A stretch of 64,000 nt of DNA from Octopus vulgaris. Lineage: Eukaryota. The position numbers and the translations under genes are program-made. Under the pieces are notes generated by a model, which ran no database searches, was not told the DNA's origin, and saw only the letters and a list, made by a program, of their open reading frames with translations. Of this stretch, positions 3,238 to 60,108 are shown piece after piece. How positions within the stretch are numbered: the first letter of the stretch is position 1; every line of letters begins with the position of its first letter. The stretch lies in the NCBI GenBank assembly GCA_951406725.2, contig OX597817.1:142910001-142974000 (forward strand), read 5' to 3'.

Positions 3238-3273
<36 letters not shown>

Positions 3274-3540
3274 ATATATATATATATATATATGTCTGTC
3301 TTTCTATCTGCCTGTCTATTTGTAAATATTTCTCTGTCTCTCTCTGCTCTATCTATCAGTCTCTCAGACATATGTCTGTCTATCTATCTATCAATCCATC
3401 TATCTATCTGTGTATCTGTCTGTCTATTTGTCTATTTATCTATCTGCCTCTCTATGTGTCAATATTTCTCTGTCTCTCTGCTCTATCTAGCAGTCTCTCA
3501 AACAGACGTCTGTCTATCTATCTATCTATCTATCTATATA

Positions 3541-17369: not shown

Positions 17370-17781
17370 AAGACAGCGAACTGGCAGAAACGTTAGCACG
17401 CCAGGCGAAATGCTTAGGGGTATTTTGTCTGGCGTTCTGAGTTCAAATTCCGCCGAGGGCGACTTTGCCTTTCATCCTTTCGGGGTCGATAAGTTAAGTA
17501 CCAGTTACGCACTGGGGGTCGATATAATCGACTTAATCCGTTTTTCTGTCATTGTTTGTCCCCTCTGAGTTTAGCCCCTTGTGGGTAGTAAAGAAATAGG
17601 TATTTCGTCTGCCGTACGTTCTGAGTTCAAATTCCGCCGAAGTCGACTTTGCCTTTCATCCTTTCGGGGTTGATAGATTAAGTATCAGTTGCCCACTGGG
17701 GTCGATGTAATCAACTTAATCCCTTTGTTTGTCCTTGTTTATCACCTCTATGTTTAGCCCCTTGTAGGCAATAAAGAAATA
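17370..17781 (+). mobile_element. SINE family A head-to-tail dimer (tail 1)
   Basis: Full unit, junction GTAAAGAAATA|GGTATTTCGTCTGCC at about 17598, second unit ending GCAATAAAGAAATA. Confidence 0.85.
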
Positions 17782-28427: not shown

Positions 28428-29225
<798 letters not shown>

Positions 29226-30591: not shown

Positions 30592-32218
30592 CAGTGGCGG
30601 CCATAATGTTCAGAACGGCATTGTTTTCGTCAGAAAAGTAGATATAATTTTTTATCAAAGTTGTTTTATATTCTATAATTTTCACAGACAATAAATACGA
30701 TATTATTTGTTATTGCCTGAGATTTTGGTGTAATTTGAGAGGATAATACAAAAGTTATGGATGATTTAGTGATTTACTGCAAAACCCATGGCGGCCAAAA
30801 TGATCAGAACGGTTGCTTTTACTCCGTGTTTTAGTATATTTAACCGGCGAACTCTAATGTTTTGAATTTGTTTACGTGACGGTTCGTTTACTAAACATTA
30901 GTAAGAATATTTGCAGTGTACTTTGTTAATATAATGCCACTTACTCCGTTACCAATTCGTCAGCAGATTATTAAGCTTCGAAGGAAGGATAATTTAAGTA
31001 TTGGATCTATTGCAAAGATTGTTAACAAGTCAAAAAGTGTTGTACACGGTATTCTTAAGGTCTACGATGATTGTGGTTCGTGTGAAGCAAGAAAGTTTAC
31101 AGGTAGGCCAAGAAAAACGACCAAGAGAGAAGATCGTGCTATGGTAAAGTTGGTTAAAAAGGACAGATTTAAAACTGCTGCTGCTGTTTCTCGGAAAATG
31201 AGCATTGTATTGAAGAAAACTTTATCTCGAAAAACTGTGTCTCGTCGTTTAGTTGAACATGACCTACAAGCAAGAGCACCTGCAGTGAAGCCACTGATCA
31301 GCTCCAAGAATAAAAAGTGTCGTCTTACCTTTGCAACCGAACATGTGTTGTGGTCTCAAGAAAAATGGCAAACGGTGCATTTCAGTGATGAATCTAAGTT
31401 TATGTTATTTGGCTCAGATGGGAAAAGGTACGTTCGTAGAAAAGTAGGTGAAAAATTGTCGCCTAAATGCCTTAAGACTAGTGTTAAATTCGGTGGAGGA
31501 AGTGTCATGGTTTGGGGGATGATATCTGGAGATGGTGTGGGCCCTTTGGTGCGATTACATGGAAAGGTAAATGCAGGAGTTTATAAACAACTTGTAAAAG
31601 ATCATGTCTTGCCTGTGCTGAGAAATTCAACTAAGCGACCACCCATATTCATGCAGGACAATGCCCCATGTCACAAGGCTAAGGTGGTCATGAACTTCCT
31701 CAAGGCTGAAAAGGTTATTGTTATGGATTGGCCTGCTCAAAGCCCAGATCTCAATCCTATTGAAAATGTATGGAATATTCTAGGAGAACGTTCGAAAGCC
31801 AGAAATCCTAAAACAACTGAGCAATTATGGAATGCCCTTCAGGAAGAATGGAATAAGATCACCCAGCAAGAAATTGAAAATTTAATTTCCTCATGTAGTC
31901 GAAGATGTCAGAGTGTGATTGAAGCTAAAGGGCTTCACACTAAATATTAAATAATTCCAGTATTTTCTGTCATTTTTGATTATTTTGTTATTTTTTAACC
32001 GTTCTGATCATTTTGGCCACCATGGGTTTTGCAGTAAATCACTAAATCATTCATAACTTTTGTATTATCCTCTCAAATTACACCAAAATCTCAGACAATA
32101 ACAATTAATATTGTATTTATTGTCTGTGAAAATTATAGAATATAAAACTACTTTGATAAAAACTTATACCTACTTTTCTGACGAAAACAATGCCATTCTG
32201 AACATTTTGACCGCAACG
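30592..32218 (+). mobile_element. full-length Tc1 (DD34E) transposon of IR/DR type
   Basis: Inverted repeats of about 222 bp (30592-30814 and 31997-32218), each with an outer and an inner direct repeat (GCGGCCA(T/A)AATG(T/A)TCAGAACGG); TA on both sides. Confidence 0.95.
30934..31950 (+). CDS. Tc1 transposase, 338 aa, intact ORF
   Basis: ATG at 30934; N-terminal HTH region, GRPR motif, FSDESKF / QDNAPCH / SPDLNPIE triad with 34 residues between the second D and the E. Confidence 0.95.
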   Translation: MPLTPLPIRQQIIKLRRKDNLSIGSIAKIVNKSKSVVHGILKVYDDCGSCEARKFTGRPRKTTKREDRAMVKLVKKDRFKTAAAVSRKMSIVLKKTLSRKTVSRRLVEHDLQARAPAVKPLISSKNKKCRLTFATEHVLWSQEKWQTVHFSDESKFMLFGSDGKRYVRRKVGEKLSPKCLKTSVKFGGGSVMVWGMISGDGVGPLVRLHGKVNAGVYKQLVKDHVLPVLRNSTKRPPIFMQDNAPCHKAKVVMNFLKAEKVIVMDWPAQSPDLNPIENVWNILGERSKARNPKTTEQLWNALQEEWNKITQQEIENLISSCSRRCQSVIEAKGLHTKY

Positions 32219-36185: not shown

Positions 36186-36258
36186 CCCTTACTAAAAGGG
36201 ACCGATAGAATAAGTAGCACATTCTAAACTAAGTACTGGAATTAATTTGTTCGACTAT

Positions 36259-36650
36259 ACCTATTTCTTTATTACTCACAAGGGGCTAAACACAGAGGTG
36301 ACAAACAGATCAATTCGATTATATCGACCCCAGTGCGCAACTGGTACTTAATTTATCAACCCCGAAATGATGAAAGGCAAATTTGAACTCAGAACGTAAC
36401 GGCAGACGAAATACCTATTTCTTTATTACCCACAAGGGGCTAAACACAGAGGGGACAAACAAGGACAGACATAGGTATTAAGTCGATTACATCGACCCCA
36501 GTGCATAACTGGTACTTAATTTATCGACCCCGAAAGGATGAAAGGCAAAGTCGACCTCGGCGGAATTTGAACTCACAACGTAACGCAGACGAAATACCGC
36601 TCAGCATTTCGCCCGGCGTGCTAGCGATTCTGCCAGCTCGCCCGCCGCCT
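36259..36650 (-). mobile_element. SINE family A multimer (tail 1)
   Basis: Two units with junction TAAAGAAATA|GGTATTTCG; the second unit also ends AAAGAAATA|GGTA. Confidence 0.85.
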
Positions 36651-37008
36651 TATTGTTCGACTATACTCTTGCTGCCTTGTCAAAAACAAGTGAAGACATT
36701 CTAAAATCATTTTGTGGTGAAGCGATGAGGGTCCACTCATTTGTTTAATTATGTGCCCAGTAATCTCTAGATAAGCTGTGGCCAGTGTTGGCTGATGATA
36801 TACAATGCCTGTATGTATGAAAGCATTTGGAACACAAGCAGAGTCTCTCAACGTGATGAACCAAATAACAAATGAGTGAGGCTTAGTTTTGAATAAATAA
36901 CGCCATTTCTCTTTAACTCACAGCCTTACGTACTGTCTTTCGTTTTAATTGCATGTCACACCACTTTGAAAGCACGAATGCTCGCGTTCGCAAACACACG
37001 TAGATACA

Positions 37009-42112: not shown

Positions 42113-42325
42113 AATGGTTTCACATTTTTGCACAAGGCCAGCAATTTTGGGGGAGGGGTAAATCTATTACATCGACCCAAGTGCTCAAGTGGCAATGCTA
42201 TTATCGATTCCAGTAGGATGAATGCAAAGTCGCGCTCGACGGAATTTGAACTCAGGATGTGAAGACGGACGAAATATCCCTAAGCATTTTGCACGGCGTG
42301 CTAACGATTTCGCTACTACCCACCT
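42113..42325 (-). mobile_element. SINE family A, diverged
   Basis: GGAATTTGAACTC B-box (reverse complement), CACAAGGCCAGCAATTTTGGGGGAGGGG tail. Confidence 0.7.
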
Positions 42326-42572: not shown

Positions 42573-42613
42573 TATATATTAAAACCAAAACTTCACTGAG
42601 ATGTCTTAATTTT

Positions 42614-43430
42614 TCTAGTCTCGGCAGAAGGCCCGAAATTTTAGGGGAGGGGGCAAGTCGATTAAATCAACCCCAGTACGCAACTGGGACTTAATTTATC
42701 GAACCCGAAAGGATGAAAGACAAAGTCGACCTCGGCGTAATTTGAACTCAGAACGTAAAAACACGGAATACCACTAAGCATATTGCCCGGCGTGTTAACG
42801 TTTCTTATCGCTTTTCTGCCCACAAGGGGTTACAAACAGAGGGAACAAACAAGGACAGACAAACGGATTAAGTCGATTATATCGACCCCAGTACGTAACT
42901 GGTACTTATTTAATCGACCCTGAAAGGATGAAAGAGAAAGTCGACCTCGGCGGAATTTGAACTCAGAACGTAAAGACAGACGAAATACCACTAAGCATTT
43001 CGCCTGGCGTTCTAACGTTTCTTATCGTTTTACTGCCCACAAGGGGCTACACACAGAGGGAACAAACAAAGACAGACAAACGGATTAAGTCAATGATATC
43101 GACACCAGTGCATAACTGGTACTTATTTAATCGACCCCGAAAGGATGAAAGGCAAAGCCGACCTCGGCGGAATTTGAACCCAGAACGTAATGACAGATGA
43201 AATACCTATTTCTTTACTACCCACAAGGGGCTAAACACAGAGAGGACAAACAAGGACAGACAGACGGATTAAGTCGAATGTATCAACCCTAGTGCATAAC
43301 TAGTACTTATTTAATCGACCCCGAAAGGATGAAAGGCAAAGTCGACCTCGGCGGAATTTGAACTCAGAACGTAACGGCGGACGAAATACCGCTAAGCATT
43401 TCGCCTGGCGTGCTAACGTTTCTGCCAGCT
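42614..43430 (-). mobile_element. SINE family A tetramer (three tail-1 units, then one tail-2 unit)
   Basis: Junctions AAAGAAATA|GGTATTTC (about 43205) and CGATA|AGAAACG (about 43022 and 42805); last unit ends CCCCTCCCCTAAAATTTCGGGCC. Confidence 0.85.
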
Positions 43431-43568
43431 AACGTCTTAGTGAGATGTCTTAATGCCAAGGCCAACCACCCTTTAACCGCTGTGTGTACAATGTGTTGTA
43501 ATAGAGAAAGTGTCGAGTGTATGCAGACATATGAGTGAGTGAGTGAATGAGTGAGTGAGTGAGTGTGA

Positions 43569-44540: not shown

Positions 44541-44909
44541 ACAAAGGCACTGAGAGAGCGCAAATCTCCGCCAAGGCAACACCAACATCCTCTCAACAAT
44601 TAACAGGAGAGGATTTTTAAAATGAGAATATCTGAAATAAACTCGTCCGCTCTCACAAACGAAAATACTAAAAACGAACCTGACCGCTCTCAAAAATTAA
44701 GTAAAAAAAAAAAAAGAAAAAATAATCCAGAATCCTTGTCTGGTACCGGTTGGATCCCAAAATCTAATCTGTTCGTGTCAGTCACGAAGCTAAATATCCC
44801 TTAAAGTTTCATTCGAATCCATCCAGCGGTTCTTGAGATATCTTGTCCACGGACAAACAAACAAACACGACTGAAAACAATACATCCACATTTGAAAAGG
44901 CGGTGGTAA
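44541..44909. mobile_element. HINE/DINE-1-like non-autonomous Helentron derivative
   Basis: GGCACTGAGAGAGCGCAAATCTCCGCCAAGG at one end, AAGGCGGTGGTAAT at the other, AAGTTTCAT..AATCCATCCAGCGGTTCTTGAGATATC block and (CAAA)n. Assignment is by recalled similarity. Confidence 0.6.
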
Positions 44910-51325: not shown

Positions 51326-52342
51326 TGTTTCTTTATTAGCCACACAGGGCTGCACACAGATAGAACAAATTACAAGGTAGAGCTTTTCTTTTGAAGGTTT
51401 AAAAAAAAAAAAAAAAAAAAAGGAAGGGGAGTTTCGATCAAAAGGGATCGTAAAAGGAGAGAAAGAGGACAAAAAAAAGGGGGTTAAAAAAAGAGGGGAG
51501 AGGAAAAAAAAAATTGATCAATAGGGATCGTTATCACAGAAATGTCAATATGAAGTGTAAAGGGGAGGACAGGTGAGGTTTACCCGTGGAAAGAAAAGCC
51601 TACGGAAAAGACCACGGTAACCTCAGTCAATGAAGTCACATTTTATATTTCTTTTTTTTTGGGGGGGGGGTTCATAGGACTATGCTCAAGGTGGCTTCGT
51701 CATTCATACGTGCCATTCTTGCTACATTCACCCATCTTTTTTTAAAACATTCGCTAGACAAAACTTGCCTCTCTACTCTCACTTTCCTTTTCAAGTGGTA
51801 CTTGAAGAAGTTGATGAGAGATTGACCAGAGAGGAAAGTGTTTGTCTCCAATCCTTTCAGACGCGTCCACCAGATACATTCTTTCGCCATAGCCACAAGG
51901 ATGATGAAAATAGCTCTTCCTTCCCGTTTGAAGGAAGGAGGCGTGACAATATTGACGATAGACTCAGCTGATAAACCGACTCGTCCCACACGTGACAGCA
52001 GTTGTTCGACATAAGCCCACAGGTCGGAAATTGTTGGACACTGCACGAGTGCGTGCAGAACGGTTTCGTCGCTCTGCCCGCATCTCGGGCAGGTCGGCCC
52101 CGTGTTTCTCGAGCCGTGTCTGCAGAGCTTATCCCGAACGGGTAGCGCTTCTCGGTAGCACTGCCAGGCCAGGGATCTCTGGAAGTTGTCCATGGGCCCT
52201 GGCCCGGCAGTGCTACCGAGAAGCGCTACCCGTTCGGGATAAGCTCTACAGACACGGCTCGAGAAACACGGGGCCGACCTGCCCGAGATGCGGTCAGAGC
52301 GACGAAACCGTTCTGCACGCACTCGTTCAGTGTCCAACAATT

Positions 52343-52343
<1 letters not shown>
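51325..52343 (-). mobile_element. 5'-truncated L1/Tx1-like LINE (zf-RVT region plus 3' UTR) with fold-back 5' end, inserted in (TAGA)n
   Basis: WQCYREALPVRDKL..CPRCGQSDETVLHALVQCP..LWAYVEQLL..AKECIWWTR; stop at 51672; T-rich UTR ending AATAAAGAAA; (TAGA)n on both sides. Confidence 0.85.
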
Positions 52344-52414
<71 letters not shown>

Positions 52415-58555: not shown

Positions 58556-58790
58556 ATGCAGGCTGTACGTTGGGCTAAATGCTTACTGATATTTCCAGGT
58601 TCTTTACCATTTCCTGCTCAAATCTTACCGAGATCCTCTTTGCTCTTCATTCTTTCAGGGCTCAGTAAAAAAAAGTATTTGTCGAGCACACTACCTCCCC
58701 TAAAACTGCTGGTCTTGTGCCAAAATGTTAAGCCATAATGATTATTTTTATGACCATCATCAATTGGTTTTCAATATTTTTAGGCGTTTA

Positions 58791-59615
58791 AGGCGGCGAG
58801 CTGGCAGAAACGTTAACAAGCCGGGCATTTCGGTATTTCGTCTGCCGTGACGTTCTGAGTTCAAATTTTGCCGATGTCGACTTTGCCTTTCATCCTTTCA
58901 GGGTTGATAAATTAAGTACCAGTTTAGCACTGGGGTAGATGTAATCGATTTAATCCATTTGTCTATCCTTGTTTGTCCTCTCTGTGTTTAGCCTCCCATT
59001 GGGCAATAAAGAAATAAATATTTTCACATGGCAGAATTGTTAGCACGCTGGACGAAATGGTTAGCAGTATTTCGTCTGCAGTTACGTTCTGAGTTCAAAT
59101 TCCGCCTAGGTCGACTTTGCCTTTCATCCTTTCGGGGTCGATTAAATAAGTACCAGTTACGCACTGGGGTCGATTAAATAAGTACCAGTTACACACTGGG
59201 GTCGATATAATCGACTTAATCAGTTTGTCTGTCCTTGTTTGTCCTCTCTCTGTTTAGCCCCTTGTGGGTAGTAAAGAAATAGGTATTTCGTCTGCCGCCT
59301 CGTTCTAAGTTCAAATTCCGCCGAGGTCGACTTTGCCTTTCATCCTTTCGGGGTCGATTAAATATGTACCAGTTACGCACTGGGGTCGATATAATCGACT
59401 TAATCCTTTTGTCTGTCCTTGTTTGTCCTGTCTGTGTTTAGTCTCGTGTGGGTAGTAAAGAAATGGGTATTTCGTCTGTCTTTACGTTCTGAGGTCGACT
59501 TTACCCTTTATCCTTTCGGGCTCGATAAATTAAGTACCAGTTGCTCACTGAGGTCGATATAATCGACTGGCCCCCCTCCCCAACAATTTCGGTCTTTGTG
59601 CCTAGAGCAGAAAAT
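58791..59615 (+). mobile_element. SINE family A multimer (tail-1 units followed by a tail-2 unit)
   Basis: Junctions GTAAAGAAATA|GGTATTTCG (about 59281) and GTAAAGAAATG|GGTATTTCG (about 59465); last unit ends CCCCCTCCCAACAATTTCGGTCTTTGTGCCTAGAG. Confidence 0.85.
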
Positions 59616-60108
59616 AATATTTTCACGTGTTTGTGTGCATTTCATTGTGGAAATACAGAAATGTGTTTATATGTCGCATCAATTATGCTTCGTTGCAGAA
59701 TTCGTCTTGTTTCTGGTATTATTTTATTGTTTCGTTCTGTTTGTTGTGTAGAGTGATGTGCTAAATGAGCTGTGACATTTTAATCGGTCGGTGTTTGTGC
59801 TTTCAGTGTGTTGTGTGTTTGGTGTGGTATAATATCACATCATATTTGTTTACAATGTGCGTTCTGCTGTGTTGCTTGTTAGCAAATGAGCAGAATCTGT
59901 GCCGTGGGGTTTGAGTTATTATATTTGTGTTTGTATAAGATATATGGTGCACATAGATTTGTATAGGATATATGGTGCACATAGGTAGTATTCTGTTCGG
60001 GTTGGGTTAGTGAATTGAAATAGTCACGGGTTACATCTACAATGTACTAAGAAAAATCTACCTTCCCGAGAGTTTGCATCTCCAGGCTGGAACCCCTTAT
60101 CTTGTCCG

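What the first reader, a model, noticed from the sequence alone, without database searches (positions are those of the whole stretch)
42614..43430. Tx1-tailed SINE appears to insert site-specifically into the head of its own family, building tandem arrays
Seen: family A multimers occur at four loci (17370-17781, 36259-36650, 42614-43430, 58791-59615). Nearly all internal junctions join the end of tail 1 to one of only two positions in the tRNA-like head: AAAGAAATA|GGTATTTCG (all four loci) or CGATA|AGAAACG (twice, this locus). In both long arrays the last unit carries the other tail (tail 2, CCCCTCCC..AATTTCGG) and starts at that junction, while upstream units carry tail 1. Known: Tx1-clade endonucleases are often sequence-specific (Tx1L into Tx1D, Dewa into tRNA repeats, Keno into U2). 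Inference: tail-1 SINEs are mobilised by a Tx1-like LINE and repeatedly inserted at a fixed site in existing family A copies, with the 5' end resolved by homology. The alternative is a multimeric or circular RNA template.
Basis: partly seen in the sequence, partly recalled or inferred. Interest (0 to 1): 0.75.

Follow-up and report, generated by a model that had tools for sequence, protein, structure and literature searches.

The report
SINE that lands inside itself
A very common short jumping element in this octopus-like genome inserts again and again at one fixed spot inside older copies of its own family, building tens of thousands of small head-to-tail stacks, and the landing spot is likely chosen in part by the element's own RNA end pairing with the target.

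Summary
Real and genome-wide. The locus is a four-unit stack of a tRNA-headed SINE inside one 14-bp target duplication. Its main junction (tail 1 joined to head position 48, J1) occurs exactly 44,881 times (control 0). Nested full-length copies with their own duplication at J1 show true insertion into older copies: 301 pattern matches against 14 and 30 at control positions. Terminal tail-2/3 units are older than first units (24 vs 6), and no multimer master was found. Local duplication also adds units (24 of 83 neighbours share rare variants). Tail 1 is shared with L1/Tx1-type LINEs. What picks the site is open. Half of T-variant copies sit in unique DNA that matches the head only at +1 to +7 of the nick, and site choice tracks tail variant (odds ratio about 283, partly confounded with age). 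This favours pairing by read-through RNA. A site-specific LINE endonuclease remains a strong rival: other LINEs here are site-specific, and earlier notes of this scan report the same system, with a LINE at the same spot, on other DNA. My searches did not find that LINE. No paper found describes it.

The parts
43441..43454 (.). 5' copy of the 14-bp target-site duplication around the whole stack
   Evidence: exact repeat of 42597-42610
43207..43437 (-). Unit 1: tRNA-like head, conserved core, tail 1 (T variant)
43199..43212 (-). Junction J1 (tail end 43207 joined to head position 48 at 43206); the last six tail letters are the reverse complement of head positions 50-55
   Evidence: sequence
43023..43206 (-). 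Unit 2: headless 184-bp unit starting at J1, tail 1 (C variant)
42806..43022 (-). Unit 3: 217-bp unit starting at J2 (head position 15), tail 1 (C variant); shares several tail changes with unit 2
42611..42805 (-). Unit 4: starts at J2, tail-2 subfamily body and tail; inferred original host copy
   Evidence: 6.9% from tail-2 consensus vs 10.3% from tail-1 consensus
42597..42610 (.). 3' copy of the target-site duplication
17372..17781 (+). Dimer, tail 1 + tail 1, J1 at 17599
36247..36666 (-). Dimer, J1 at 36415; 14-bp duplication (36247-36260, 36653-36666) whose first letters match the J1 site
58785..59016 (+). Separate tail-1 monomer (C variant) abutting the trimer
59017..59626 (+). Trimer: two tail-1 units and a tail-2 unit, two J1 junctions, 11-bp duplication at both ends
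51328..52340 (-). 3' end of an L1/Tx1-type LINE (zf-RVT) whose last ~45 bases resemble tail 1; followed by a 4-bp microsatellite
   Evidence: (PF13966, E 1.2e-8)
28506..29100 (-). Second, broken 3' end of the same kind of LINE, followed by a dinucleotide run

Best explanation
Tail-1 copies of this SINE insert into the head of existing family copies at fixed position 48 (less often 15), likely using borrowed L1/Tx1-type LINE enzymes, and the site is likely chosen largely by base-pairing between the nicked target and head sequence that the SINE RNA carries past its tail. Shown: fixed junctions; nested full-length insertions with 11-19-bp duplications in older hosts; older terminal units; at least one case of head sequence copied beyond the tail into a site lacking it. 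Inferred: a copy sitting at J1 is transcribed through its tail into the host, so its RNA ends in the target's own sequence and primes best at the same site in another copy, a self-reinforcing loop. Also inferred: because the cDNA's far end is homologous to the host head, it usually anneals there and replaces it, leaving a seamless stack; only about 1% or so keep two heads. Some stacks then grow by local duplication. A site-preferring endonuclease may act together with the pairing.
For: Site + 0-15 bases + a new full head: 301 matches at J1 and 70 at J2, against 14 and 30 (about half are tandem copies at three places) at control positions. In 23 of 30 J1 loci the inserted copy ends in tail 1 followed by 11-19 bases matching the 5' site (two rows are one place); several share private letters (L111, L116, L132, L140), and L123 also keeps the host's outer duplication. 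No such duplication in 10 control loci. Last unit more diverged than first in 24 of 33 tail-2/3-ending arrays, less in 6, p=3e-4; no difference in 34 tail-1-ending arrays. No pair of 1,639 cross-locus array pairs shares rare variants in both units. Of 20 T-variant ends in unique DNA, 17 start with the site's first two letters, background 2.7%. In 20 T-variant insertions with a readable duplication the pre-insertion site matches the head at +1..+7 (10-15 of 20 each), drops to 3 of 20 at +8, and matches 4-6 of 20 at -1..-3 (one row, L128, is a worn head). Exact 29-mers: T variant J1 31,645, J2 364; C variant J1 560, J2 1,824 (odds ratio about 283). L029 has 29 head bases after the tail and the duplication beyond them; L148's last unit is tail-1-like for about 75 bases, then old. 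LINEs with similar tails do not use the site: 0 of the first 100 of 1,894 ends, 0 of 30 loci of a second lineage, 0 of 30 zf-RVT loci including the lineage with the closest tail. Precedent: L1 priming needs about 4 matched bases (PMC3649969, abstract); R1 5' ends anneal to upstream target (PMC2718515, passages).
Against: Tail variant is confounded with age: C-variant copies are more diverged (8.2%, n=19, vs 5.5%, n=46, against a T-dominated consensus). T lands on C 44 times and C on T 9 times in my partly selected loci, so successive enzymes could give the same linkage. Other LINE lineages in this genome are clearly site-specific. Earlier notes report a LINE at this same spot (unverified). Endonuclease preference can also be one-sided (own knowledge of L1). 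Only 1 of 16 partial next units had a clean duplication beyond the copied head bases. Target mismatches were not corrected toward the RNA more often than away. Heads of tail-2-ending arrays are no more diverged than tail-1 monomer heads (p=0.24), and only 6 of 33 first units carry host-type letters at 61/63, so for the seamless majority insertion into DNA is inferred. No RNA was examined.
Confidence: 0.55

Rival explanations
1. Same targeted insertion, but the site is set in trans by a sequence-specific Tx1-type endonuclease; J1 and J2 reflect successive LINE partners, and unique-DNA copies are relaxed off-target events.
For: Tx1-clade LINEs and their SINEU passengers target other transposons (PMC4494074, passages and section 14). 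Site-specific lineages exist here: six of six 3' ends of one intact lineage (L395-L400) are followed by the same repeat. C-variant/J2 copies are older than T-variant/J1 copies. Eight or more earlier notes describe a LINE and ORF1-only elements at one head site (not verified).
Against: No LINE end at J1 or J2 found. 306 of 309 continuing tail ends in my loci have a SINE core upstream and the other 3 look like truncated SINEs. Pattern searches showed no recurring foreign tail. These would miss a rare LINE whose last ~60 bases equal the SINE's. Off-target sites match only downstream of the nick, whereas R1 off-target sites match around the nick (PMC2718515, section 14).
Confidence: 0.33
2. Stacks form during one reverse-transcription event (template switch between SINE RNAs, or a multimeric or circular RNA) and insert as a block at unrelated sites.
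For: One duplication flanks whole arrays (13 of 34 tail-1-ending, 15 of 28 tail-2-ending; 3 of 69 in mismatched controls). Heads look like tail-1 heads. Read-through templates exist (L029). First and last unit divergence correlate weakly (rho 0.28).
Against: Cannot give nested copies with inner duplications inside old hosts. Terminal units up to 16% diverged follow 2-6% units. No shared multimer source among 1,639 pairs. A hint of an allele with the host alone.
Confidence: 0.08
3. Arrays arise only by local unequal crossover or slippage within one copy.
For: Neighbouring tail-1 units differ by 7.5% vs 10.0% between arrays; 32 of 83 pairs fall below the 5th percentile of between-array distances; 24 of 83 share two or more rare variants vs 0.5%. 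Proposed for bivalve and reptile SINE arrays (PMC11481361, PMC10702118; passages).
Against: 51 of 83 neighbour pairs are not unusually alike; the four units here differ by 10-17%; it does not explain one fixed junction at 44,881 places, mixed subfamilies in fixed order, or inner duplications. It is a secondary process.
Confidence: 0.04

Closest known systems
Crocodilian SINEU-3 with Tx1-Mar LINEs (PMC4494074; passages and section 14 read)
   Same: A SINE sharing a Tx1-type tail inserts at a fixed site in an abundant repeat and forms tandem copies by sequential insertion.
   Different: SINEU-3 targets another element (Mariner-N4) and tandem copies sandwich a duplication; here the target is the SINE's own family head, most stacks are seamless and headless, about half of the copies lie off-site, and site tracks tail variant.
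Tx1L in Tx1D, Keno in U2, Kibi/Koshi in microsatellites (as summarised in PMC4494074, passages)
   Same: L1/Tx1-type machinery with fixed targets; sister LINEs here use microsatellites or fixed repeat sites.
   Different: Those are autonomous LINEs whose endonuclease is taken to set the target; for this SINE no matching LINE was found in my calls.
R1 elements of Drosophila (PMC2718515; passages and section 14 read)
   Same: Transcripts carrying target sequence give precise, homology-resolved junctions; downstream target bases are sometimes copied into new sites.
   Different: R1 is autonomous, targets 28S rDNA, and its off-target sites match around the nick.
Tandem SINE multimers in the clam Scapharca (PMC11481361, passages) and SINE-derived satellites of squamates (PMC10702118, passages)
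   Same: Full head, repeated head-truncated units, one outer duplication.
   Different: There the inner units have truncated tails, arrays are attributed to unequal recombination, and no targeted insertion is described.

Membership tests
tRNA-derived SINE | Short, non-coding, dispersed, with target-site duplications | tested here: met
   212-231-bp consensus units; duplications at 22 of 44 tail-1 monomers vs 3 of 69 controls
tRNA-derived SINE | Head derived from a tRNA, with A and B boxes | tested here: inconclusive
   Box-like motifs seen by eye (recalled consensus); ARAGORN found no tRNA and Rfam nothing near threshold
tRNA-derived SINE | Transcribed by RNA polymerase III | not testable with these tools
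   No RNA run was laid
SINE partner of an L1/Tx1-type LINE | 3' tail shared with LINE 3' ends | tested here: met
   Last ~45 bases shared with LINE ends in the window and genome; one LINE shares the upstream 29 tail bases at 97% (L359)
Tx1 clade (for the partner LINEs) | APE endonuclease + RT + C-terminal zinc knuckle, L1-group RT | tested here: met
   zf-RVT; relatives carry PF03372+PF00078+PF13966; best solved relative is human L1 ORF2p, E 1e-50, R2 1e-24; intact 1,145-aa frame
Tx1 clade (for the partner LINEs) | RT phylogeny groups with named Tx1 rather than L1 | not tested
   No named Tx1 reference was available; homologs were unnamed
Sequence-specific Tx1/SINEU-type system | Partner LINE inserts at the same site as the SINE | tested here: inconclusive
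   Not found; searches cannot exclude a rare LINE with an identical tail; earlier notes claim one
Sequence-specific Tx1/SINEU-type system | Independent insertions at one site with duplications | tested here: met
MetaSINE or Nin/Deu superfamily | Conserved central domain matches the published consensus | tested here: inconclusive
   Resemblance was recalled only; the consensus was not in the text held, supplement file 1 was not searchable
Retrozyme / circular RNA element | Self-cleaving ribozyme in each unit | tested here: not met
   No Rfam match near threshold; unit folds no better than shuffles, z 0.01

The most novel reading that the evidence does not exclude
The SINE's target site is a heritable trait carried in cis: each lineage reads through into whatever it last landed in and uses those few bases as a guide, so a lineage that once landed in its own family's head became self-targeting and built tens of thousands of stacks with an enzyme that has no special taste for that site. 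Site choice of a non-LTR retroposon could then be reprogrammed by the RNA's last seven or so bases.
Probability: 0.4. Interest if true: 0.85.

Novelty: new variant of a known kind. Interest (0 to 1): 0.68.

Why it matters
Whether the RNA or the endonuclease sets the target of non-LTR retrotransposition is an open question with practical weight for RNA-templated gene insertion. Here tens of thousands of natural events, two sites and marked lineages make it testable. Self-targeting also gives a route from dispersed SINEs to small tandem arrays that needs no unequal crossover to start. It would steer many insertions into already-occupied DNA, and it will mislead repeat libraries: the majority consensus runs on through the junction.

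Tried and rejected
Ribozyme or structured-RNA cause: none. Single multimer master: none among 1,639 pairs. Head age as a marker of the host: no signal. Empty allele at this locus: contigs break in the repeat, unresolved. In that lay the tail-1/J1 bins were about five times lower relative to the core in run X10 than in X1, X2 and X5, but summed contig depth is no copy number. Empty allele at L062: in run X4 one contig matches the old host with 0 differences over 3247-3376 and stops exactly at J2 with 11 letters unlaid; X10 and X12 hold both flanks and the host tail. No contig bridges the site, the letters are not shown, and later loss by recombination is possible, so this is a hint only. Search for a LINE ending at J1/J2: negative; L192 and L125 looked like candidates but gave no LINE similarity. 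The J2 nested pattern is mostly not a duplication: 5 of 30 loci have one (4 of 5 with the C variant); many others are head fragments or short local head repeats, so the 70 count overstates J2 nesting and the 301 may include some such cases. No partner LINE for tail 2 or 3 in the sampled DNA. One genome-wide tally of followers for a further LINE tail variant was not run, so that lineage is known only from about ten loci, none at J1/J2. Ohshima and Okada 1994 on octopus SINEs was not held, so identity with a named family is unchecked.

Full report
Observation. On the minus strand 43437-42611 holds four units of one short repeat between two exact copies of a 14-bp sequence (43441-43454, 42597-42610). 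Unit 1 has a full head and tail 1. Unit 2 starts at head position 48 (J1). Units 3 and 4 start at position 15 (J2), and unit 4 has tail 2. The other three loci are as described, except that 58791-59615 is a monomer next to a separately duplicated trimer. The window holds about 25 pieces of the family. Homologs of the window's LINE fragment carry octopod names, so I call the genome octopus-like.

Scale. The exact 18-base J1 junction occurs 44,881 times in G000; the reversed control occurs 0 times. In 864 kb taken without regard to junctions (this window, 200 kb beside it, and 30 stretches of 20 kb on 11 contigs), 56 strict tail-1 ends split as follows. T variant, 42: 21 at J1, 1 at J2, 20 in unique DNA. 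C variant, 14: 1 at J1, 2 at J2, 11 in unique DNA. Three subfamilies were resolved: tail 1, tail 2 and tail 3, with monomer cores 4.9, 9.0 and 15.3% from their own consensus.

Is it insertion? A new full head within 15 bases after the J1 site occurs 301 times, after J2 70 times, after two control positions 14 and 30 times. In 23 of 30 J1 loci the nested copy ends in tail 1 followed by 11-19 bases matching the 5' site. Eleven of those bases are fixed by the pattern, so the stronger cases are those sharing private letters (L111, L116, L132, L140) and those with a young copy inside a worn host that keeps its own outer duplication (L123). At J2 only 5 of 30 show a duplication, at the control 0 of 10. 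In arrays ending in tail 2, tail 3 or an unclassified tail the last unit is more diverged than the first in 24 of 33 and less in 6 (p=3e-4); tail-1-ending arrays show 14 vs 14. No two arrays at different loci share rare variants in both units (0 of 1,639). So targeted insertion into older copies is real. Nested two-headed forms are only about 1% of junction counts, though, and for the seamless majority the same route is inferred. Against a simple version: heads of tail-2-ending arrays are not older-looking (p=0.24), and 21 of 33 first units have tail-1 letters at positions 61/63, with 6 having host-type letters against at most 1 of 44 monomers. That fits replacement of the host head by homologous cDNA, but also a template switch. 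Laying other runs gave one hint of a host-only allele, not a bridge, and nothing at this locus.

Secondary growth. Neighbouring tail-1 units differ by 7.5% against 10.0% between arrays; 24 of 83 pairs share two or more rare variants against 0.5%, more often between inner units (14 of 33) than first and second (10 of 50) (most arrays in this test were picked for an exact J1). Local duplication therefore adds a minority of units. Here the four cores differ by 10-17%, although units 2 and 3 share tail changes.

The partner. Tail 1 shares its last ~45 bases with LINE 3' ends in the window. These carry zf-RVT; relatives have APE, RT and zf-RVT and are closest to human L1 ORF2p among solved structures. 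Tx1 rather than L1 was not tested by a tree. The window's lineage ends on short microsatellites: 0 of the first 100 of 1,894 ends meet J1 or J2 (22 of 30 loci confirmed as LINE by more than 150 bases). A second, intact lineage uses a trinucleotide repeat and forms 5.9-kb tandem arrays. A third has the tail closest to the T variant, yet none of the 30 zf-RVT loci ends at either site. Other lineages are plainly site-specific for different repeats.

What chooses the site. Site tracks tail variant: 31,645 and 364 (T at J1, J2) against 560 and 1,824 (C) (the C patterns cover one of two C sub-variants). Off-site T copies still land on look-alikes: 17 of 20 begin with the site's first two letters, background 2.7%. 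Pre-insertion sites match the head at +1 to +7, not at +8 or just upstream. Read-through templates exist: L029 has 29 head bases copied after the tail with the duplication beyond (1 clean case of 16 partial units), and L148's last unit switches from young to old about 75 bases past J1. This points to pairing between the RNA's 3' extension and the nicked target, as shown for L1 priming (PMC3649969, abstract only) and inferred for R1 junctions (PMC2718515, passages and section 14). But C copies are older (8.2% vs 5.5%), and T lands on C more than the reverse (44 vs 9), so two successive enzymes could mimic the linkage. After reading earlier notes that report a LINE at the same spot I raised that rival from 0.2 to 0.33 and searched for the LINE. 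None turned up, but a rare LINE with an identical tail would escape these tests. The tail's last six letters are also complementary to head positions 50-55 (sequence); its role is unknown.

Known systems. Closest is SINEU-3 with Tx1-Mar, which targets a different transposon and leaves a duplication between tandem copies (PMC4494074, passages and section 14). Similar head-truncated multimers in a clam and reptile SINE satellites are put down to recombination (PMC11481361, PMC10702118; passages). A recent octopus repeat annotation has no hit for 'nested' or 'target' (PMC13282606; part 1 of 3 and term search; supplements not read). Eight full-text searches listed no paper on a SINE targeting its own head; the library lacks most subscription papers and Repbase entries, and the 1994 octopus SINE paper was not held. 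Superfamily was not settled (PMC4824008 passages and one supplement file; PMC4758252 passages).

Verdict. A real, genome-wide self-targeting SINE: about 0.88 that targeted insertion seeds the stacks, 0.55 that RNA pairing is the main site selector, 0.33 that an endonuclease is. A new variant of known Tx1/SINE targeting; interest 0.68.

Noticed in passing
window 30594-32217: Tc1/mariner-type element with 221-bp inverted repeats (95%) and an open 351-codon transposase frame at 30895-31950.
   Followed up: partly
window 51960-52400: The LINE fragment's 5' part is an inverted copy of the adjoining sequence, as in a fold-back or twin-priming insertion.
   Followed up: no
G000:C4:93804612-93834472; also C1:202330175-202348361, C47, C50 (L311-L321): An intact 1,145-aa L1/Tx1-type LINE forms head-to-tail arrays of up to about ten copies, period about 5.87 kb, each separated by a short trinucleotide run like the one flanking the array.
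   Followed up: partly
L395-L400, L412: Another intact LINE lineage is followed by the same repeat sequence in six of six ends, and stacks in tandem at C2:73.05-73.07 Mb.
   Followed up: partly
L363, L403, L404, L406: A further LINE lineage shares one fixed downstream sequence in four loci; its tail end is complementary to the start of that sequence.
   Followed up: no
L186-L189; G000:C15:52495169-52495520; C30:10202944-10203085: Short tandem repeats (23-28 bp) of the SINE head's first part in front of a full copy.
   Followed up: no
G000:C1:4037444-4038392; L171: Longer stacks of six or more units with near-identical inner units.
   Followed up: partly
window 42130-42325: An old tail-3 copy of the family lies 290 bp from the stack but is not part of it.
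   Followed up: yes
L135: A tail-1 copy runs into an inverted second copy just after J1, forming a palindromic pair.
   Followed up: no
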